From Mycobacterium phage prophiT36-2b, in sequence record OQ417968.1: a DNA stretch of 37,655 nucleotides; one strand, given 5' to 3'. Below, piece after piece: positions 1 through 37,655 of this stretch. Made by a program: the position numbers and the translations under genes. Under the pieces are notes generated by a model, which worked only from the letters and a program-made list of their open reading frames with translations, was not told where the DNA came from and ran no database searches. Within the stretch, counting starts at the first letter, position 1; each line of letters opens with the position of its first letter.

Positions 1-33
1 GTAATGAATAGGTCCGGGGTTGGCTTCCCCTGG
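1..33. repeat. attL: attL core: imperfect direct repeat of 37616-37648 (positions 1-14 identical, ~30/33 overall). Reads as the 3' half of a tRNA (acceptor/T-arm) beginning in the anticodon loop region
   Basis: Direct comparison: gtaatgaataggtcCggggttGgCttcccctgg versus gtaatgaataggtcAggggttCgAttcccctgg. Confidence 0.75.
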
Positions 34-318
34 ATTGTCATCGCCGCCGCCGGGGCCACGGCCCGGAACGGGCTTTATCCCGGCCGTCACGTAGATGTAT
101 GAAATCCCGGTACCTGCGCAGGCGCGATCAAGCTCGTCCACTGCCCATGCGACCTTGCCTGAGATTCGAGTAGACATCGCCTGGGGCGAGATTCCCACCG
201 CGCGGGCCAGTTCGGTGTACTTGATCCGTCTGCCCGCGCACTCTTCACGGATGCGGCGGGCCACGGCAGCAGCCCGCGATTCGCCGCGATCACCATCAAC
301 AGCCATCAAGGTCGTCAT
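1..318 (-). CDS. Prophage repressor, XRE-family HTH. Integration-truncated form whose ORF runs off the left window edge through attL (>=106 codons here)
   Basis: Manual translation of minus frame from ATG 318-316: MTTLMAVDGDRGESRAAAVARRIREECAGRRIKYTELARAVGISPQAMSTRISGKVAWAVDELDRACAGTGISYIYVTAGIKPVPGRGPGGGDDNPGEANPGPIHY... with no stop before position 1. HTH motif IKYTELARAVGISPQAMSTRISG. Absent from the ORF track because no in-window stop. Divergent from the cro-like gene. Confidence 0.7.
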   Translation of the reverse strand, partial: MTTLMAVDGDRGESRAAAVARRIREECAGRRIKYTELARAVGISPQAMSTRISGKVAWAVDELDRACAGTGISYIYVTAGIKPVPGRGPGGGDDNPGEANPGPIHY

Positions 319-443: not shown

Positions 444-677
444 ATGTCACTAATGACTACTGATCAGCGAGTGGCGGCGAATGTGCGGGCTGAGTTAGCC
501 CGTAGGCGGGTCAACCGGCAAGCCCTGGCCAAGGCGATGGGTATCGGCCCGATGGCCGTTTCGCGCCGGATGTCTGGTCAGGTTTCGTTTTCGATCGCCG
601 AGCTATTCCAAGTCGCTGAAATCCTGAAAGTTGACATCGCGGCACTCATCGCGATCGATCAGGCGATTGCATCGTGA
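444..677 (+). CDS. Cro-like HTH (XRE family) transcriptional regulator, 77 aa
   Basis: ORF track. HTH ALAKAMGIGPMAVSRRMSGQVSFSIAELFQVAEIL. Divergent to the repressor. Confidence 0.7.
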   Translation: MSLMTTDQRVAANVRAELARRRVNRQALAKAMGIGPMAVSRRMSGQVSFSIAELFQVAEILKVDIAALIAIDQAIAS

Positions 678-1957: not shown

Positions 1958-2275
1958 ATGTCACGTTCCGAAGACCCGACCCTTGTCAATCTGGAAACAG
2001 CCGCCAGCGCATCGGGCGAAATCACTTCCATGACAGGTGATTCCATCGAAATACAGGGGAACTTCACCCCTGGTCAGGCATTGGTGCTACGCCCCGGCGC
2101 AAGGGTGTTCGTCCTGGCCGTCGATGACGCCATCGAGATCCTTGACGGCCTCACCGCCGACGCCGCCGCCGAGGCCGCAGCTGCCGCCGCCGCTAAAGCC
2201 GCCCATGAGGTCGCTAAGGCGGTCGCTACCGCCGCAGGACAGGCGGTCGAGAAGATACAGGCTGGTCTCGAATGA
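1958..2275 (+). CDS. Hypothetical protein, Ala-rich C-terminus, 105 aa
   Basis: ORF track. RBS agcagggagg. Confidence 0.5.
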   Translation: MSRSEDPTLVNLETAASASGEITSMTGDSIEIQGNFTPGQALVLRPGARVFVLAVDDAIEILDGLTADAAAEAAAAAAAKAAHEVAKAVATAAGQAVEKIQAGLE

Positions 2276-3420
2276 AGTTTGCGATCGACACCGATCTTCT
2301 CGCCGAGACCATCGCGGCGGCAATCAGTTCCGTGCCATCGCGCCCGACCTCGCCGGTCCTGGGCGGTGTGTTGATCGAAGCACAGATTGGCGCGGTCACG
2401 ATGTCTAGTTTCAACTACGACCGCGCCACCAAGCGCACCGCGCCCGCTATGGACGTTGCCGAGCCTGACACCGTTGTTGTCTCGGGCAAGCTGCTGGGGG
2501 CGATCGGGGGCAACCTGCCCCGCAACAAAGACGCCACCGTTGACGTGAGCGGCCAAGAAATGGTTATCACGGCTGGCCGCACCGCGTTCCGGCTCCCGCT
2601 GCTGCACGCCGAGGACTACCCGAACCTGCCGATCATGAAACCCGACGAGGACACCATCGGGACGGTCGATGGTGACACGTTCGCCGAGGCCGTCCAAGTC
2701 ATCGGCGCGTTGGCCTCCACCGACGAACAGCCCGCCAATCTCACCGGCATCAACCTCACTTTCAGCTCAAACGGGTTGTGGCTGTGCGCTACTGACCGAT
2801 ACATCGTTGGTCGGCGCCGCCTGGACTGGGCGGGCAACACGCAGGCTCAGGCCCTTGTCCCGGCTGCCGATCTGCTCGCAACAATCAAGGCAGTGGCAGG
2901 CCCGGCCCCCGAAGATGTCGAAATCCTGCTGCGCAACGGATCGATGTTTGGTCTGCGCACCTCGGCGACCACCGTCATGACCAGTTGCCTCGGTGAGGAA
3001 TTCCCGCCGATGGAAAGGGTACTGACGCCCGCTGTCTATTCCGCGGTGTCCACCGTGCCCACGGCGGAGCTGGCCTACATGCTGCGGCGGGCGTCGTCCA
3101 TCGCCGACGACGGCTACGCCCAGATTGACATCGAAGTCGATGCCGGGGGCCTGTCGGTCACCACCACCAAGAGCGCGACCGGCAAGGTCAACGACAGCAT
3201 TGCCTCTGAGCACCAAGGTGATTACCGCCGCGTCGCTTTGTCGTCGCGGCGCCTGCACAGCGCGCTATCGGTGGTTGATGACCCCGAGGTGAGCTTGGGT
3301 TTCCGCGCGACCGGACATCTGGTCGGTATCCACCCTGGCGCACTGGAGCGCACAGACGACGAAGTTGACCTGCTGGCGTGCAACAACTTCGCCCTACTCA
3401 TGGGGATTTCAGGCAAGTGA
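2272..3420 (+). CDS. dnaN: DNA polymerase III beta sliding clamp homologue (DnaN-like), 382 aa
   Basis: Pattern matches to mycobacterial DnaN: PVLGGVLI, TAFRLPLLHAEDYPNLP, LTGINLTF...ATDRYIVGRRRLDW, ALVPAADLL. ATGA overlap start. Confidence 0.8.
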   Translation: MKFAIDTDLLAETIAAAISSVPSRPTSPVLGGVLIEAQIGAVTMSSFNYDRATKRTAPAMDVAEPDTVVVSGKLLGAIGGNLPRNKDATVDVSGQEMVITAGRTAFRLPLLHAEDYPNLPIMKPDEDTIGTVDGDTFAEAVQVIGALASTDEQPANLTGINLTFSSNGLWLCATDRYIVGRRRLDWAGNTQAQALVPAADLLATIKAVAGPAPEDVEILLRNGSMFGLRTSATTVMTSCLGEEFPPMERVLTPAVYSAVSTVPTAELAYMLRRASSIADDGYAQIDIEVDAGGLSVTTTKSATGKVNDSIASEHQGDYRRVALSSRRLHSALSVVDDPEVSLGFRATGHLVGIHPGALERTDDEVDLLACNNFALLMGISGK

Positions 3421-3745: not shown

Positions 3746-4486
3746 ATGACCCACAGCGCTACACGGTTCTTCTGGTCGTGGCTGATCGGCTCGGCGGCGT
3801 TCTCCATCCTTGGTGTCGTCACGCACGCGATCCTCGGTGATGCGCGCTCGGCGCTGATCGCCTCGGTGCTCGCGGTCGGCATCGTGGTGATCCAGCTGTG
3901 CGCCACGTACGGCGTGCACGCCTTGGTTCAGGAACGCATCACCGGCGCCGCGTACCGGTGGGCGCTGGCGATCGCCGTAGCGCTGGCCCTCGGTGCGTTC
4001 GTGCTCAACTTCGTGGCGCTGCGCGATCTGGTGATCACCTGGGCGGGCACCGCGCCCGTCATCGCGTGGATCGTGCCGCTAATCATCGACCTGGGTATGA
4101 CGGCGAGCACTCTGGCGATACTGGCGCTCACCGACGCGCAACGCACCGAACAACTGCACGCATCGGCGCATCCTGCCGCACAACCAGCGGCCACGGTGCA
4201 CGTCGAAGTACACAACACGGTGCGCACCGAAGCGCATGCCCTCGCGCAACCCGCGCAGGCCGGTGTGCAGTCCGATCAGGCTGCCGTGCATGCTGCGGTC
4301 GCTGCACGCCTCACCGCTGCGGGCGTGGTGCGCATCGCCCCTGAACGCATCGTGAACGTCCTTGACGCGCACGCCGAGGGGATCAGGCCGGGAACCATCG
4401 CGCGATCCCTGGGTGTCGGGTTCAGCACCGTCAAGAACATCGTCGCGGCGCTCGCGGTCGAAGGGGCCGACCCCCATGGCGCCTAA
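3746..4486 (+). CDS. Membrane protein (4 predicted TM) with C-terminal HTH domain, 246 aa
   Basis: ORF track. Hydrophobic N-half. C-terminal IARSLGVGFSTVKNIV HTH. Confidence 0.6.
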   Translation: MTHSATRFFWSWLIGSAAFSILGVVTHAILGDARSALIASVLAVGIVVIQLCATYGVHALVQERITGAAYRWALAIAVALALGAFVLNFVALRDLVITWAGTAPVIAWIVPLIIDLGMTASTLAILALTDAQRTEQLHASAHPAAQPAATVHVEVHNTVRTEAHALAQPAQAGVQSDQAAVHAAVAARLTAAGVVRIAPERIVNVLDAHAEGIRPGTIARSLGVGFSTVKNIVAALAVEGADPHGA

Positions 4487-32529: not shown

Positions 32530-32859
32530 TTACGCGGGCTTGTCGATCGGTTCGGCCTTGTACTTGAATTTGATGTCATCGCCGTTCACTGATGTTGTCG
32601 TGACCACGACGGAGTACTTAGTCCCCTCGTCGTCCACAACAGTGCACTTTTGTGTCGCATCGACCTTGCCGTCTAGCGGGCCGTCACACTCGGCGCCGCG
32701 AAGGTCGAAATGTTGCCTCTCTTTGACCGCGTCCTTTAGCCCCTGCTCAAGGTTGTCCTTAGAGATGCGCTTGAAATTGCCGACATCGACAGAGGCGTGG
32801 CAACCCGAGAGAGCGGCCATGAACAGCAGGGCCGAAGCAATCATCAAGTTAGCCTTCAT
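32530..32859 (-). CDS. Lipoprotein (signal peptide plus lipobox LSGC), 109 aa. Noticeably AT-richer codon usage than the phage backbone
   Basis: ORF track. MKANLMIASALLFMAALSGC. Confidence 0.6.
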   Translation of the reverse strand: MKANLMIASALLFMAALSGCHASVDVGNFKRISKDNLEQGLKDAVKERQHFDLRGAECDGPLDGKVDATQKCTVVDDEGTKYSVVVTTTSVNGDDIKFKYKAEPIDKPA

Positions 32860-33304
32860 CTTCCACCACTTTCAGGTTTTGCAGGAACGAAACAAACTCG
32901 GGCTTGACAAGATCATACTGGTCACGTGGCGAGCTGAATATCAGCTCCAGCAGATACGACCGGCCATCTGCAGTGCCAGTGGTCGAATACAGGCGATCGC
33001 CCCTCACCGGCACACCGGCTTCTATAAACTCCAATTCCTGGCCGTATTGCGATATGGGCTTGTACGAGATGTAGCCGCTGCGGGCGACGGTGGCATTCAA
33101 CCGGTCAGCGTCGGCCCGCGCATGCTTCTGGACATCGATTGTTGGCCAGTTGATGAAGCACTCGCGCACGACGATGCGTGCCGATGGCACGATAGGCTCT
33201 CTGACGTACACCACCACCGCGTACGGGTCGCTCTCGTGGTCTGGGGGGATGGTGGCCCATCCGGCAGGGCCGTCACCGCCAACGTTGACCTTGTACTTGG
33301 GCAC
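32849..33304 (-). CDS. Putative immunity protein of the toxin cassette, 151 aa
   Basis: Immediately downstream of the toxin gene (1-nt gap) and co-oriented. No recognisable motif. Confidence 0.4.
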   Translation of the reverse strand: MPKYKVNVGGDGPAGWATIPPDHESDPYAVVVYVREPIVPSARIVVRECFINWPTIDVQKHARADADRLNATVARSGYISYKPISQYGQELEFIEAGVPVRGDRLYSTTGTADGRSYLLELIFSSPRDQYDLVKPEFVSFLQNLKVVEDEG

Positions 33305-33305
33305 G

Positions 33306-34799
33306 TTAGTTATTGACCCACTGCCACAGTTTGCCTAGCTCGCCGCCGAATTCCTTTGGATCAACTGTAATTTCAAATCCCGGTTTGGCGCCTATGCCGA
33401 ATGCTAGGCCCCAGCTGCCGCCGATCTTCCATTTGTGGTCCGGGGTCTCGGCAAAGGTGAGATGTGCTCCGGCGCCCGCGCCAGCCCACTCCTGTACTTC
33501 ACCCTTCACTTGGAGACCGTGGCCCTCGTAGTCGAGATGCTGACCGCCACCGATGCCACCGAAGGCGCCACCGCCGATCTGAATTCCGTTCTCTGCTACT
33601 GCTTTACCGTTGGTGTATTCCTCGACACCTAGGCGACCGGCGGTGCCTGCCTCTATCTTGCTGCCGTCCCCCAGGTCCCAATGGATATTGCCCTTGTTGT
33701 CTATCAGGTATGCGCCCGCGTGTTGCTTGCCCGAAACGGCGTCTTTCTTGACTTCGCCCTCGGCGCCGAATTTTGCTTCCAGCTGTTTGGAATTGAGTTC
33801 CCAGTCCCCGCCGAATGCGTGCCCCTTGCGGCCCCACTCGTTGACCTCGCCGCCGAGCTCTCCGGTCTCGCCTTTCGCGATCGTGGGGCCTGAGCCGTCG
33901 CCGATCTTGGTCGGATCGCCGAACTTGCCTCCGATAGTTGTGCCGGTGGGCGTGGTGTTCTTGCCCTCCGGGGACTTGTCTACGCCCTTACCGGCCTGGG
34001 TGCCAAAGTCCTTGTCCTTCTTGAGCAATTCCTGTTCAGGGATCGGAATCTCCGGCTTGCCTAACTTGTCCTTGAGTGGGACTCCGGGCTGATCCTGCGT
34101 CTGCGGCAACCGACCAAGGGTGTCGGTCATGCTACCGACGCCAGCCGGTGTGGTCGCTGCCGGTTCCCCGGATAGCAGTTTCTGGACTTCCGTTGGTGCG
34201 AAGGCTTGTGGGTTCGTCTCGGCTACGGCGGCGCGTACGGCTGTGCGCCCGTTGGCGCCGACCGCGCTCAGGTTGATCGCGCCCGCGATTTGCGACTCGG
34301 CGCTATGGATTTTGTCCGCAACGCCCTGCGATGCCGAAAACCATTTGCCCGCGCTGTCTTTAAGTTCGTCAGCCGCAGCGGCCACAGTCTGTTTGTTCTT
34401 CGCTGCTTGCTCATCGCTCATCCCATCCGGGGCGGTGTAGGTCATCGTGTAATCCTGATTGACCGTTACGCCCTGGATCTGGCGAGCGTTGTCAACGATG
34501 TTGTGCCCATTGTTCAGAGCTGGCACCACTTCGTAGGTGACAGCGGCAGTCACCTCGGTCACCAGGCCCTCCACCGTGTCGTGGATGGAGGTGATCGCGT
34601 TTGTGTCCTGGCCAGCTTTGTCCTGCGCGGCGGTGGCCGTCTTGCCCCACCAATCCGTCCCACCTGGCGCGTACACGCCCGATTTGTACTCCGCGTAGTC
34701 GGACACCAGCGCCCGCATTTCAGCGGCCCAGCCGGGGACGTGCTCTAAATATGAGTTGGGGTTGATTGCCATGAATTCATCCAGCGGCGGAAGGGACAT
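33306..34799 (-). CDS. Polymorphic-toxin-like protein: N-terminal WXG (DWWGK) helical domain, Pro/Lys/Gly-rich linker, Gly-rich C-terminal domain, 497 aa
   Basis: ORF track. WxG motif ~residue 50. Low-complexity linker. C-terminal repeats GxWxL.../AKFGAEGEV/KGEVQEW/GIGAKPGFE. Confidence 0.55.
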   Translation of the reverse strand: MSLPPLDEFMAINPNSYLEHVPGWAAEMRALVSDYAEYKSGVYAPGGTDWWGKTATAAQDKAGQDTNAITSIHDTVEGLVTEVTAAVTYEVVPALNNGHNIVDNARQIQGVTVNQDYTMTYTAPDGMSDEQAAKNKQTVAAAADELKDSAGKWFSASQGVADKIHSAESQIAGAINLSAVGANGRTAVRAAVAETNPQAFAPTEVQKLLSGEPAATTPAGVGSMTDTLGRLPQTQDQPGVPLKDKLGKPEIPIPEQELLKKDKDFGTQAGKGVDKSPEGKNTTPTGTTIGGKFGDPTKIGDGSGPTIAKGETGELGGEVNEWGRKGHAFGGDWELNSKQLEAKFGAEGEVKKDAVSGKQHAGAYLIDNKGNIHWDLGDGSKIEAGTAGRLGVEEYTNGKAVAENGIQIGGGAFGGIGGGQHLDYEGHGLQVKGEVQEWAGAGAGAHLTFAETPDHKWKIGGSWGLAFGIGAKPGFEITVDPKEFGGELGKLWQWVNN

Positions 34800-34805
34800 C
34801 GTTGC

Positions 34806-35111
34806 TCACCTTTGCCGATAGATGCTGGGCGTGTTCTTGAAAGCCGTCTCCAGCTCGCTTGACTGCTGAACGAAAGCCTGATGCGCCTCGCTGATCAGCT
34901 CCCCGATAACCCGTAACCGTCGAGAGGCAACCCGCTGCACATTCGGGATCGTCTTGGTGGTCATTGACTGGATCGCCGCGAGGGCCGGATCGGCACCCTT
35001 GGTGACGTTTTCGCCGGCCGAAATCCGACCATCAATACGGTCAGCTATCGCGCTGAGCTGCGGATTCAGCTTGCCCAATGCCTCAAGGTCGGCCTTCAGA
35101 ATCTCATCCAC
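34806..35111 (-). CDS. Small helical protein, possible Esx/WXG100-family secretion partner (no WxG motif seen), 101 aa
   Basis: ORF track. GTG start with GGGGAGG RBS. ~100 aa all-helical. Directly upstream of the toxin gene. Confidence 0.4.
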   Translation of the reverse strand: MDEILKADLEALGKLNPQLSAIADRIDGRISAGENVTKGADPALAAIQSMTTKTIPNVQRVASRRLRVIGELISEAHQAFVQQSSELETAFKNTPSIYRQR

Positions 35112-35224: not shown

Positions 35225-35599
35225 TTAATCCAGATGTCCTGGTTCGCCAGGCGGAATGGTTTCAGGCGTGACGATGTACCGCTCGATGTCGCCCTCCGAT
35301 GCCGGGGTGACATCGCGCTCGTCCTGCCAGTTTCGCGAGCAACCGCCCTGGTAGTAGGTACCGCCGCAACTGCTGCGCCGGTACTGCGGACTCCAGAATT
35401 GGCGCGATCGTGACCACCATGGCCCGTTGGGTCCTTGCTGGATAGGTCCATCGCATATCTTGCGCACCTGCGGATTGAGCCCAAAGACAGGGACCTGTTC
35501 GCAGCCGGACGGTAGTGGGTCGGCCTGGGCGGGTGCGGTGCCGAAAATCGTCGCCGCGATCGCGGCGGTGGCTGCGGCAAGCGCCGCGATCTTCCCCAT
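35225..35599 (-). CDS. Secreted small Cys-containing protein (Sec signal peptide ...APAQA|DP), ~124 aa
   Basis: Internal Met of track ORF 35225..35728. The longer N-terminal extension would start at 35728, two nt from the tRNA gene. Confidence 0.5.
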   Translation of the reverse strand: MGKIAALAAATAAIAATIFGTAPAQADPLPSGCEQVPVFGLNPQVRKICDGPIQQGPNGPWWSRSRQFWSPQYRRSSCGGTYYQGGCSRNWQDERDVTPASEGDIERYIVTPETIPPGEPGHLD

Positions 35600-35693: not shown

Positions 35694-35729
35694 TCTGACG
35701 GTGGTTTACGATTACGGGGCCTTTTCAAG

Positions 35730-35802
35730 GCCGCCTTAGCTCAGTCGGTAGAGCAGCTCACTCGTAATGAGCAGGTCAGCGGTTCGATTCCGCTAGGCGG
35801 CT
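35730..35802 (+). tRNA. tRNA-Thr (anticodon CGU), 73 nt, no encoded CCA
   Basis: Manual fold: acceptor GCCGCCT/AGGCGGC, D-arm GCTC AGTCGGTAG AGCA, anticodon stem GCTCA/TGAGC with loop CTCGTAA, T-arm AGCGG TTCGATT CCGCT. Confidence 0.85.
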
Positions 35803-35807
35803 CTCCT

Positions 35808-36700
35808 TTATGCCGCGTCGCCGTCCGTCAATATGAGGGACGGTATCGGCGCCCCTCCGATGGGTAGCTGTAGCCGCTCGATGCCTTCTGCTCGGCGTTC
35901 GTTCTTCACCTGGGTGTAGATCTGGGTTGACTGGATGCTCGCGTGGCGGGCGAGTTCCTGGGTGGTTCGCAGGTCTACGCCAGCCTCCAGTAGCGCGGTG
36001 CAATACCAATGACGCAACCGGTGACCGGCGCCCTGTACGCCTGCACGGGTGAATACCTGTCCAAGCGTGTGGCTGACCGACTCGCGGCGAACATGCCCGC
36101 CACTCTTGCTTGGAAACCAGTGCCCCTTGCGAGGCATTTGGTACGCGATTTCGACAACCAGCGGGTGAAGGGGAAGCACCTTCGTGACGTTGCCCTTGCC
36201 GTGCACGATCATCGTGCGGGCGATCAGGTCGAAGTGCTCGCCCTTGACCTTGGCGATTTCGTGCACTCGGAGTCCTTGCAGTGTGGCTAGCAGCGCCATA
36301 GCGCGTGTTCGTTTCCACATCCGAACGCGCAGGATGCGTCCCAGCTCCTCATCGGTCACTGGTCGCGGCTCGCTCTTGGGACGCCGGGGCGATGGAATGT
36401 GGAGCATCGGATTGTCTATGCGATGCCCCTGCGTTTGCAGCCACGAGAACCACGCACGCAATGTGCTGTGATACGTCCAGCGGGTTCGCGCTGACCAGCC
36501 TTCGTCACTGTCGGCCCCTTCGGCGAGCCACCGAACGATGTGTTCCAGTGTTGCGAGTTCCGGAGCCACGCCGCACCACTCGGCCATCCGCCTCACGGTC
36601 CACGCGCGCTCGGTGACTGTGCGAACAGACAGCGATTGCGCGTATTGCCATGTTGCCCAAAGGTGCAAGAGTGATGTGTGGTGTGAGTGAAGGTTCAGCA
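35808..36700 (-). CDS. int: Tyrosine integrase (site-specific recombinase), ~297 aa from Met at 36700 (alternative upstream start at 36821). C-terminus ...LTDGDAA
   Basis: Catalytic motifs HRLRHWY and IYTQV (Tyr). N-terminal core-binding/SAM-like domain. Abuts the tRNA 3' end. Confidence 0.85.
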
Positions 36701-36951
36701 TTCCGCCCCCTGATGATGAGTTGATGGTTTTCGGCTCCCTGGATTCCCCCCGGTCTCCATGCCGCTCGGCAGAGCACGAAACTATGGCGAGATGGGCTCG
36801 GCCACAAGCCTTTTCGGTCACTGTTTGAGCACCTTCCTGTAACTATTGGCACGGGCGTCCCATCGTGGCTTTGGCTCGGCTACCAGCAGATTTGGGTTTG
36901 GCATGCAGAAATGTTCCACGTGGCAATAACGTGATTTGACTGTTGCGAAAT

Positions 36952-37206
36952 TCAACGGTCCGCGAGGAATAGGGCAAATCGGTCGGTTTTGCCAATTCCG
37001 TAGAATCGCCGTCGCTCGCGTGAGCGGGATTGACCTTCGCCCCACAGCATTACGCCGTTCAACGCGTAGACGACACTCGCGTAGGCCGGTGTGCCGGGCA
37101 ATCGGAATACACACTCATGCACCGGGCCTAACACATCCGAGGTGCCACCGTTGGATATCCAGCCGTGCACGAGGGCCGTGCGGGCGTGGTGCTGCGCGTC
37201 GGTCAT
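36952..37206 (-). CDS. Hypothetical protein, 84 aa
   Basis: ORF track. ATGA-coupled to the upstream minus-strand ORF. Confidence 0.45.
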   Translation of the reverse strand: MTDAQHHARTALVHGWISNGGTSDVLGPVHECVFRLPGTPAYASVVYALNGVMLWGEGQSRSRERRRFYGIGKTDRFALFLADR

Positions 37207-37538
37207 CGACTCGCACCCTTGTCATAGGCAGCGACGACGAGCTTCAACACCGCTTCGGCTTGGGCGCGGTCGGCGACTTTGGCGGATAGTAGCTCTCCGG
37301 CCCGATCGCCCATGTAGACGGCCCACCCCGTAACCCAGTCCTTGGCCCACGCCACTGTGCGCAGGGCTCGCATCGCCGCCAGGCAGTCCCCGTCGTCCAC
37401 GATCGCGGTCGCTTCGCAGTCGTAGTGGGCGCGACTGAACGGGCGCTCAGCCTCGTCACCGCTGCGCCGGTATTCGACGTGAGCGCCGCACGCACAGCGT
37501 CGAACCCGAATGGTGGCGCCCTCGGTCGCCCTGCTCAC
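37203..37538 (-). CDS. Hypothetical protein, 111 aa (GTG start)
   Basis: ORF track. Its GTG start overlaps the stop of the repressor C-terminal reading frame (GTGA). Confidence 0.45.
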   Translation of the reverse strand: MSRATEGATIRVRRCACGAHVEYRRSGDEAERPFSRAHYDCEATAIVDDGDCLAAMRALRTVAWAKDWVTGWAVYMGDRAGELLSAKVADRAQAEAVLKLVVAAYDKGASR

Positions 37539-37615
37539 GCCGCGATCCGATCAGGCGTGACGGTCGGCACAGTGCTCATGAATAGGGGGACGATTTGGGC
37601 GTCTTTGTCAGACTT
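37535..37615 (-). other. Orphaned 3' end of the virion-form repressor gene: 26 sense codons (KSDKDAQIVPLFMSTVPTVTPDRIAA) plus stop. In-frame with the attL-side repressor ORF if core 37616-37648 is replaced by core 1-33
   Basis: Manual translation of the minus strand from 37615 in the frame that continues codon 3-1 of the left arm. Confidence 0.55.
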
Positions 37616-37648
37616 GTAATGAATAGGTCAGGGGTTCGATTCCCCTGG
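37616..37648. repeat. attR: attR core. With flanks 37613-37655 it is the 3' half of a tRNA-Thr(UGU)-like gene (anticodon loop CTTGTAA, T-arm AGGGG TTCGATT CCCCT, acceptor GGGTGGC). No tRNA 5' half upstream
   Basis: Direct repeat of 1-33. Manual tRNA alignment against tRNA-Thr(CGT) at 35730. Confidence 0.75.
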
Positions 37649-37655
37649 GTGGCTC

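What the first reader, a model, noticed from the sequence alone, without database searches (positions are those of the whole stretch)
35730..35802. Intact tRNA-Thr(CGT) inside the prophage, 5 nt from the int stop codon
A complete, well-folding tRNA-Thr(CGU) sits between the cargo cassette and int. Its 3' half is related to the att core, but this gene carries anticodon CGT where the attR-side fragment has TGT, and several stem bases differ. The actual att core matches a tRNA-Thr(UGU)-like 3' half. Two explanations are possible. It may be a phage-borne tRNA. Or it may be a fossil of an earlier attachment site that was captured together with the int module through imprecise excision or module exchange from an element that used tRNA-Thr(CGU) as attB.
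Basis: partly seen in the sequence, partly recalled or inferred. Interest (0 to 1): 0.6.

Follow-up and report, generated by a model that had tools for sequence, protein, structure and literature searches.

The report
Prophage tRNA replacing a disrupted host tRNA
The prophage really does carry an intact threonine tRNA gene, most likely as a spare for the identical-anticodon host tRNA gene that the phage breaks when it integrates; both the gene and this idea were already published for this same Mycobacterium abscessus prophage (prophiT36-2b).

Summary
The tRNA-Thr(CGU) gene at 35730-35802 (+) is real and canonical: ARAGORN calls it, Rfam scores it 71.6 bits, and it folds as a cloverleaf. It ends 5 nt before the int stop codon.

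The window is prophiT36-2b, a Cluster MabB prophage of 37,655 bp with one tRNA (Amarh et al. 2023, PMC9934374). That paper reported this tRNA and speculated that it complements a damaged host tRNA-Thr.

It is the host tRNA-Thr(CGU) gene t5010, not a UGU tRNA. The "T" in the attR fragment is phage DNA just left of the 14-bp crossover core.

My additions:
- This phage alone fails to rebuild t5010. The attL hybrid scores 40.7 bits against 71.5 for rebuilt genes and forms no acceptor stem.
- A single lysogen identical to the window at both ends examined exists.
- Six GenBank MabB relatives and IMG/VR relatives rebuild the tRNA through a 40-bp core. Those whose int-proximal end I could read keep only a decayed 3' half of this tRNA at the same spot.
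- A second prophage lineage with a damaged attL carries the identical 73-nt tRNA.

This fits "tRNA-dependent lysogeny" (Guerrero-Bustamante & Hatfull 2024), here combined with integration-dependent immunity. Function is inferred, not tested. Already known; low interest.

The parts
35730..35802 (+). Intact phage-borne tRNA-Thr(CGU) gene; no encoded CCA
   Evidence: ARAGORN. Rfam tRNA 71.6 bits. Cloverleaf minimum-energy fold at -31.5 kcal/mol. The identical 73 nt occur in IMG/VR contig UViG_2675903612_000001.
35700..35729 (+). 5' flank conserved with the second tRNA-carrying prophage (GGTGGTTTACGATT...). TACGAT at 35706-35711 is a possible mycobacterial -10 (TANNNT); this is inference only.
   Evidence: Alignment A2. 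The consensus sigma-70 scan found nothing in this region.
35808..36701 (-). Tyrosine integrase, 297 aa, C-terminus ...LTDGDAA (ssrA-like -AA tag)
   Evidence: Called gene with PF00589. Translation. About 82% nucleotide identity to MabB integrase genes.
36952..37206 (-). 84-aa gene between rep and int; function unknown; conserved in MabB prophages
   Evidence: Called genes. Annotated as hypothetical in prophi89-1 and GD21-1.
37203..37538 (-). 111-aa gene downstream of the viral rep; its GTG start overlaps the viral rep stop codon
   Evidence: and direct reading of the sequence.
37535..37615 (-). [quoted passage not shown] It is separated from rep by integration.
   Evidence: In-frame reconstruction of a 132-aa viral Rep by joining the window's end to its start.
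37616..37655 (+). attR^b: 14-bp crossover core (37616-37629) followed by the original 3' end of host tRNA-Thr(CGU) t5010. The host continues ...CCA tccc.
1..40 (+). attL^b (in strain T36, the hybrid attR^a/attL^b site): core GTAATGAATAGGTC, then a phage-supplied degenerate tRNA 3' part, CGGGG TTGGCTT CCCCT GGATTGT C
   Evidence: The hybrid with the host 5' half scores 40.7 bits against 71.5 and does not form an acceptor stem.
1..318 (-). Prophage form of the immunity repressor: 106 aa in the tandem lysogen, 107 aa in single lysogens. attP lies inside this ORF.
   Evidence: Translations. HTH_26 weak hit. Homologous to the prophi89-1 rep but with a 29-bp deletion.
471..677 (+). Divergent cro-like HTH gene
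   Evidence: Called gene L006 9621-9827 with a weak PF01381 hit.
35225..35599 (-). 124-aa secreted CDGP-domain protein gene, the cargo gene directly upstream of the tRNA
   Evidence: Called gene with PF24238. No match in the phage collection.
32530..35111 (-). ESX-type polymorphic toxin cassette: WXG protein 34806-35111, toxin 33306-34799, 151-aa and DUF4333 proteins 32530-33304
   Evidence: Annotation of the homologous cassettes in prophi89-1 and GD21-1.

Best explanation
The gene is a functional, phage-carried tRNA-Thr(CGU). It stands in for the host's tRNA-Thr(CGU) gene (t5010 at attB-2), which this phage damages when it integrates.

The phage attachment site lies inside the repressor reading frame (integration-dependent immunity). 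It shares only 14 bp (GTAATGAATAGGTC, tRNA positions 35-48) with the host gene. After integration the host gene keeps its 5' half. It receives a phage-derived 3' part with a mismatched T stem, a T loop lacking C56 and A58, and a non-pairing acceptor strand. The original 3' half is left stranded at attR.

The prophage-borne copy has the same anticodon and canonical structure. I infer that it supplies ACG decoding in the lysogen. This is the logic of tRNA-dependent lysogeny.

Shown: the anatomy, the in-silico damage to the junction tRNA, the existence of single lysogens, and the correlation across relatives. Inferred: expression and aminoacylation of the phage tRNA, non-function of the attL hybrid, and a fitness need for tRNA-Thr(CGU).
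For: (1) The host attB tRNA is CGU. attL in single lysogens and in 17 IMG/VR contigs reads ATTCA CTCGTAA TGAAT.
(2) The T36-2b-type junction tRNAs score 40.7-45.0 bits, against 71.5-72.3 for rebuilt genes and 71.6 for the phage gene. The hybrid folds without an acceptor stem, at -19.7 kcal/mol and z -0.13.
(3) Contig SRR12051568_30 is a single lysogen: host holB plus the broken attL at one end (L007). The other end (L020) is identical to the window over 5848 bp, including the tRNA.
(4) Correlation. Six GenBank MabB prophages and IMG/VR relatives have a 40-bp core that rebuilds the tRNA exactly or with a compensated T stem. Those whose int-proximal end I could read have only a decayed remnant covering the anticodon arm to the 3' end, 5 nt from the int stop.
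(5) An independent lineage, UViG_2675903612_000001 (int 84% identical, different repressor tail), has two acceptor mismatches and A73 at attL (61.7 bits). It carries the identical 73-nt tRNA 3.8 kb from int.
(6) Why the core is short. The T36-2b rep is a prophi89-1-type rep with a 29-bp deletion. The deletion removes the end of the tRNA sequence and shifts the frame. In the new frame the authentic tRNA sequence would give a TGA codon; the A49-to-C change converts it to GGA.
(7) ACG makes up 22% of Thr codons in phage genes and 26% in flanking host genes, so there is no codon-supply rationale.
(8) Literature. The same speculation was made for this prophage (PMC9934374). The mechanism was proven experimentally for other mycobacteriophages (PMC10865867).
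Against: - No expression, charging or genetic data were obtained here.
- I could not check that t5010 is the only tRNA-Thr(CGU) gene in M. abscessus.
- From my own knowledge, tRNA-Thr(UGU) with a modified U34 may read ACG. Loss of t5010 might then be costly rather than lethal.
- ARAGORN still calls the junction hybrids tRNAs.
- The correlation rests on two tRNA-carrying lineages.
- Contig UViG_2795385839_000001 has a broken attL, but neither the tRNA nor int was found on it. I could not tell whether the contig is truncated or is a counterexample.
- No consensus promoter was detected upstream of the tRNA.
Confidence: 0.7

Rival explanations
1. It is an ordinary phage tRNA that boosts translation of phage genes during lytic growth by codon supplementation, unrelated to integration.
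For: Many mycobacteriophages carry tRNAs. The closest relative found is a tRNA-Thr(cgt) in the tRNA arrays of Cluster L phages.
Against: ACG is not enriched in phage genes (22% against 26% in host genes). It is the only tRNA in the prophage and has exactly the anticodon of the gene at attB. It has decayed in the relatives that rebuild the host tRNA whose int-proximal end I could read. It lies among cargo genes next to int rather than among lytic genes.
Confidence: 0.1
2. It is a fossil of an earlier attachment site, or a host tRNA captured with the int module by imprecise excision.
For: tRNA(+) directly followed by a convergent int is the geometry of an attL junction. Other MabB prophages keep only the part from the anticodon arm to the 3' end, roughly the extent of a typical attP core, at the same distance from the int stop.
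Against: It differs from host t5010 at 10 positions in 5 compensated pairs. No exact copy exists in 185,579 species-representative genomes, and the nearest bacterial sequences found differ at 6 or more positions. The identical complete gene, with conserved 5' flank, sits 3.8 kb from int in another prophage. The remnants carry T69 where T36-2b has the co-varied G4-C69 pair, which implies selection on a whole gene. The upstream DNA is a CDGP cargo gene; a CDGP-domain gene also lies near int in another prophage (L008).
Confidence: 0.1
3. It is a counter-defence tRNA that replaces host tRNA-Thr cleaved by an anticodon nuclease or a tRNA-targeting toxin.
For: The anticodon stem differs from the host's (GCTCA/TGAGC against ATTCA/TGAAT), which could in principle evade a stem-specific nuclease. 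This is inference only, from direct comparison of the sequences; no tool result bears on it.
Against: No tRNA-Thr-specific nuclease was identified here. This idea does not explain the tie between tRNA presence and a broken attL.
Confidence: 0.05
4. The tRNA is a host gene marking a true boundary, and 35803-37655 is a separate small element.
For: Only the attL-like geometry.
Against: The repressor ORF is restored only by joining 37615 to 1. Related virion genomes (phiGD89-1, P3MA) are contiguous from the cargo cassette through int to rep. A single lysogen has host DNA only outside 1 and 37655. DNA left of the tRNA is phage cargo.
Confidence: 0.01

Closest known systems
prophiT36-2b of M. abscessus subsp. 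massiliense T36/T38/T48 (Amarh et al. 2023, PLoS One 18:e0281769, PMC9934374)
   Same: It is the same object. The paper's Table 2 lists 37,655 bp, Cluster MabB, attB-2 and 1 tRNA. The DNA left of the window in the source genome is 3794/3794 identical to the GenBank right end of prophiT36-2a. The paper reports the tRNA-Thr(cgt) about 2 kb from attR^b, notes that it is absent from other MabB prophages, and speculates that it complements an impaired junction tRNA.
   Different: In the passages I read, the paper ties the need for the tRNA to the two acceptor mismatches made by the neighbouring prophage T36-2a at attL^a. It favours T36-2a integrating first. I find that T36-2b's own junction is far more damaged, and that T36-2b occurs as a single lysogen. 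The remnants in other MabB prophages and the 29-bp deletion in rep do not appear in those passages.
tRNA-dependent lysogeny (Guerrero-Bustamante & Hatfull 2024, mBio 15:e03260-23, PMC10865867): Fionnbharth (K4), Cluster L, Cain (K6), Gaia (X), Gordonia CQ2/DL phages
   Same: Tyrosine integrase; attB in a tRNA gene; short core (8-17 bp there, 14 bp here); tRNA not rebuilt; phage carries a tRNA with the same anticodon. Close relatives with long cores lack the tRNA (Cain against Ximenita, Gaia against Omega). Gaia's tRNA also lies just downstream of int.
   Different: Their Table 2 lists Lys-TTT, Ile2-CAT and Leu-CAA, with no Thr case using this mode. Those integrases are lambda-like with arm-binding domains, and attP lies next to int. 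Here attP lies inside the repressor ORF, and the short core traces to a frameshifting deletion in that ORF. The requirement for the tRNA has not been tested here.
Integration-dependent immunity (Broussard et al. 2013, Mol Cell 49:237; MabB prophages in Dedrick et al. 2021, PMC8092301)
   Same: attP inside rep. The viral Rep is 132 aa and ends in -AA; the prophage Rep is truncated to 106-107 aa. Int ends in -AA. attB overlaps the 3' end of a tRNA gene.
   Different: According to Dedrick et al., the described tRNA-site systems rebuild the tRNA. This member does not, and it carries a replacement tRNA.
Lactobacillus johnsonii prophage Lj965 (as cited in PMC10865867)
   Same: The prophage fails to rebuild the tRNA at the junction and encodes a cognate tRNA.
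   Different: Unrelated phage and host. I did not examine it here.

Membership tests
tRNA-dependent lysogeny | A tyrosine integrase recombines attP with an attB that overlaps a host tRNA gene | tested here: met
   The integrase has PF00589. attL and attR junctions with host tRNA-Thr(CGU) t5010 were read directly.
tRNA-dependent lysogeny | The common core is short and no functional tRNA is rebuilt at the junction | tested here: met
   The uninterrupted core is 14 bp. The junction scores 40.7 bits against 71.5. No acceptor stem forms in the fold. C56 and A58 are lost and G1-C72 becomes G-U (direct reading). This is in silico only.
tRNA-dependent lysogeny | [quoted passage not shown] | tested here: met
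   Both are tRNA-Thr(CGU).
tRNA-dependent lysogeny | The host tRNA is needed, and the phage tRNA is required to establish or keep lysogeny | not testable with these tools
   This needs a tRNA deletion in the phage, or integration vectors with and without the tRNA.
Integration-dependent immunity | The attP core lies inside the repressor ORF, so integration truncates Rep | tested here: met
   Viral Rep 132 aa against prophage Rep 107 or 106 aa.
Integration-dependent immunity | The viral Rep and Int carry C-terminal ssrA-like -AA tags | tested here: met
   Rep ends ...DRIAA and Int ends ...DGDAA.
Integration-dependent immunity | Only the truncated Rep confers immunity | not testable with these tools
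   This requires an immunity assay.
Canonical elongator tRNA-Thr | Cloverleaf fold, universal tertiary nucleotides, G1-C72 and C2-G71, G35 and U36 | tested here: met
   and direct reading. The ThrRS identity elements are taken from my knowledge of E. coli ThrRS.
Cluster MabB (HB) M. abscessus prophages | Shared gene order (lysis genes, toxin cassette, int, two small genes, rep) and integration at attB-2 | tested here: met
   About 82% nucleotide identity over int and rep to 11 MabB records. Annotation. Length and tRNA count match the published table.
Host tRNA captured by imprecise excision, or fossil attL | Identity to a chromosomal tRNA and its upstream flank | tested here: not met
   10 differences from t5010. 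No exact match in the species-representative genomes. The upstream DNA is a cargo gene.

The most novel reading that the evidence does not exclude
phiT36-2b is itself a tRNA-dependent lysogen. This would be the first case for tRNA-Thr, the first in M. abscessus, and the first joined to integration-dependent immunity. The dependence may have arisen as a ratchet. An ancestor had both a tRNA-rebuilding attP and its own tRNA. Most MabB lineages let the tRNA decay. The T36-2b lineage instead suffered a 29-bp frameshifting deletion in rep that destroyed the rebuilding part of attP, which made the tRNA indispensable.
Probability: 0.55. Interest if true: 0.45.

Novelty: already known. Interest (0 to 1): 0.25.

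Why it matters
If the compensation is real, a tRNA-deleted phiT36-2b should be unable to lysogenise. That is a simple route to a lytic derivative of an M. abscessus phage. Integration vectors built from this int/attP would need the tRNA to work. It would also extend tRNA-dependent lysogeny to a new tRNA and host, and to phages whose attP sits inside the repressor gene. The reciprocal decay, of either the tRNA or the rebuilding core, is a clear example of how redundancy turns into dependence. The gene and the hypothesis are already published, so the gain here is refinement rather than discovery.

Tried and rejected
- An exact 73-nt search of 185,579 species-representative genomes gave no hit.
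- A relaxed 31-nt anticodon-arm search hit more than 120 unrelated bacteria. That arm is a common consensus.
- The consensus promoter and terminator scan around the tRNA found nothing.
- I tried to reach the right end of contig UViG_2795385839_000001, which has a broken attL. Scans with int, lysin B, a tail protein, tRNA patterns and an attR pattern never returned that end. It stays unresolved and the viral scans are exhausted.
- I considered and rejected a separate element starting at 35803, a tRNA-Thr(UGU) attB, and recent capture of host t5010.
- I did not run protein homology, structure prediction or fold searches. The question concerned an RNA gene and att sites.

Full report
**Observation.**
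ARAGORN finds a single tRNA in the window, tRNA-Thr(cgt) at 35730-35803 (+). Rfam's tRNA model matches 35730-35802 end to end at 71.6 bits, against a gathering score of 29. The RNA folds into a perfect cloverleaf at -31.5 kcal/mol, and none of 200 shuffles folds as well. All universal tertiary positions are canonical. The integrase ORF on the minus strand stops at 35808-35810, 5 nt from the tRNA end.

**What the window is.**
- The int-rep end is about 82% identical to Cluster MabB prophages of Mycobacterium abscessus. These share the order lysis genes, polymorphic-toxin cassette, int, two small genes, rep fragment.
- Exact-protein look-ups place the window in GCA_028210875.1 and GCA_900134025.1.
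- The published table of Amarh et al. 2023 lists prophiT36-2b as MabB, 37,655 bp, 1 tRNA, attB-2.
- The DNA directly left of the window in the source contig is 3794/3794 identical to the GenBank right end of the tandem neighbour prophiT36-2a.
- The window is therefore prophiT36-2b.
- That paper already reports the tRNA-Thr(cgt) "approximately 2 kbp from attR^b", says other MabB prophages lack it, and speculates that it complements an impaired junction tRNA.

**Integration-dependent immunity.**
A minus-strand ORF starts at 318 and runs off the left edge. Joining 37615 to 1 gives a 132-aa repressor ending DRIAA. In single lysogens the prophage form is 107 aa, and in the tandem lysogen 106 aa. 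Int ends DGDAA. attP therefore lies inside rep. This also shows that 35803-37655 belongs to the same phage.

**Which tRNA is the attachment site.**
- In lysogens where host DNA abuts the same left end, the junction is preceded by the host holB gene (L005, L007). It reads GCCACCCTAGCTCAGTCGGTAGAGCAATTCACTCGTAATGAATAGGTC followed by phage sequence.
- Seventeen IMG/VR contigs show the same host 5' part.
- The host gene is therefore tRNA-Thr(CGU), t5010.
- The uninterrupted identity between attP and attB is 14 bp, GTAATGAATAGGTC. The T at attR is phage DNA one base to its left.

**Integration breaks the host gene.**
- Downstream of the core, T36-2b supplies CGGGG TTGGCTT CCCCT GGATTGT C in place of AGGGG TTCGATT CCCCT GGGTGGC T.
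- The 49-65 pair is lost and the T loop loses C56 and A58. Two acceptor pairs are lost, G1-C72 becomes G-U, and the discriminator base changes.
- Rfam scores for this junction type fall to 40.7-45.0 bits. Rebuilt junctions score 71.5-72.3 bits.
- The hybrid folds without an acceptor stem, at -19.7 kcal/mol and z -0.13.
- ARAGORN still labels it a tRNA, so the damage is inferred rather than demonstrated.

**The phage integrates alone.**
Contig SRR12051568_30 carries host genes and the broken attL at one end (L007). At the other end (L020) it is identical to the window over 5848 bp, including the tRNA, and it ends in the same host flank. The tRNA is therefore relevant to T36-2b's own integration, not only to damage caused by the neighbour T36-2a.

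**Comparative pattern.**
- Six GenBank MabB prophages (prophi89-1, GD21-1, GD11-2, GD43A-2, T50-1, GD34-2) start with a 40-bp core that rebuilds t5010 exactly. IMG/VR attL junctions likewise rebuild it exactly or with a compensated T stem.
- Where I could read the int-proximal end (prophi89-1, GD21-1 and six IMG/VR MabB-type contigs), no tRNA is called.
- At the same position, 5 nt from the int stop, these keep a decayed piece running from the anticodon arm to the 3' end. Its anticodon loop is mutated and its T loop reads TCCGATT.
- The remnant has the phage-type T stem (AGCGG/CCGCT), not the host type.
- A different lineage, UViG_2675903612_000001, has an int 84% identical. Its attL has two acceptor mismatches and A73 (61.7 bits).
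- That lineage carries the identical 73-nt tRNA, but 3.8 kb from int, on the far side of its toxin cassette. About 40 nt of 5' flank is conserved with the window.
- So a broken junction goes with an intact phage tRNA, and a rebuilt junction goes with a decayed one. This is the pattern described for Cain against Ximenita and for Gaia against Omega.

**Why the core is short.**
The T36-2b rep aligns with the prophi89-1 rep except for a 29-bp deletion. The deletion removes the end of the tRNA sequence and shifts the reading frame across the core. In that frame the authentic tRNA sequence reads ...ESNP*PIHY. The A49-to-C substitution converts the TGA to GGA. At least that change is required for a repressor that reads through attP. 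The other changes could be drift once the phage had its own tRNA.

**Origin of the tRNA.**
- It differs from t5010 at 10 positions, forming five compensated pairs (4-69, 7-66, 27-43, 28-42, 51-63).
- No species-representative genome has an exact copy.
- The Cluster L phage DuncansLeg tRNA-Thr(cgt) differs at only 4 positions.
- It therefore looks like a member of a mycobacteriophage tRNA lineage, not a recent capture. The fossil-attP idea remains possible for the remnants but is the less economical reading.

**Other functions.**
ACG accounts for 22% of Thr codons in phage genes and 26% in flanking host genes. This gives no support to codon supplementation. Nothing points to an anti-nuclease role.

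**Verdict.**
The tRNA is real, phage-borne, and most likely a replacement for the host gene that integration disables. This matches tRNA-dependent lysogeny (PMC10865867) operating in a phage with integration-dependent immunity. The requirement is untested, and the essentiality and copy number of host tRNA-Thr(CGU) were not checked. Both the gene and the hypothesis are already in the literature for this very prophage. Novelty is "already known" and interest is low. The refinements above are modest additions.

Noticed in passing
L006 1-9150 (DNA directly left of window position 1): A second prophage, prophiT36-2a, lies in tandem at the same attB. Its int, an 84-aa gene and its rep remnant abut the window's first base, so the window's left att site is a hybrid attR^a/attL^b. 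This matches the published description.
   Followed up: yes
L001 about 4000-4050; L002 about 3990-4040; L021-L024, L027, L033 just downstream of int: Other MabB prophages keep a decayed copy of this tRNA, from the anticodon arm to the 3' end, 5 nt from the int stop. This is not mentioned in the passages of the papers I read.
   Followed up: partly
window 33-40, compared with L011 (alignment A3): A 29-bp deletion relative to the prophi89-1 rep removes the tRNA 3' end from attP and shifts the repressor frame. The A49-to-C change removes a TGA that the new frame would otherwise meet.
   Followed up: partly
L034 6733-6805; L051 65-137; L291 (IMG/VR UViG_2675903612_000001): Another attB-2 prophage with a damaged attL carries the identical tRNA at a different position: lysis genes, tRNA, toxin cassette, lipoprotein gene, int.
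   Followed up: partly
L017 1-45; L039 58-130; L044 66-138: The tRNA-like 3' part of the prophiT36-2a attP (GGGCAGC acceptor strand) fits a tRNA-Thr with acceptor GCTGCCC seen at other attL junctions. T36-2a may therefore have come from a host with that tRNA variant. This would explain its two mismatches in M. abscessus.
   Followed up: no
window 35225-35599 (-): A 124-aa secreted CDGP-domain protein gene (PF24238) lies between the WXG gene and the tRNA. It has no match in the phage collection. A shorter CDGP gene sits near int in another prophage (L008 6510-6791).
   Followed up: no
L043 (IMG/VR UViG_2795385839_000001) and L045 (UViG_2802428947_000006): These contigs have T36-2b-type broken attL junctions, but I could not retrieve their right ends. 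It is unknown whether they carry the tRNA.
   Followed up: partly
L004 1-7944 (host side of attR): The flank beyond attR holds a small HNH endonuclease gene and several genes without Pfam hits. It may be another mobile remnant.
   Followed up: no
window 2272-3420 (+): The prophage encodes a DNA polymerase III beta-clamp homologue (PF00712, PF02767, PF02768).
   Followed up: no
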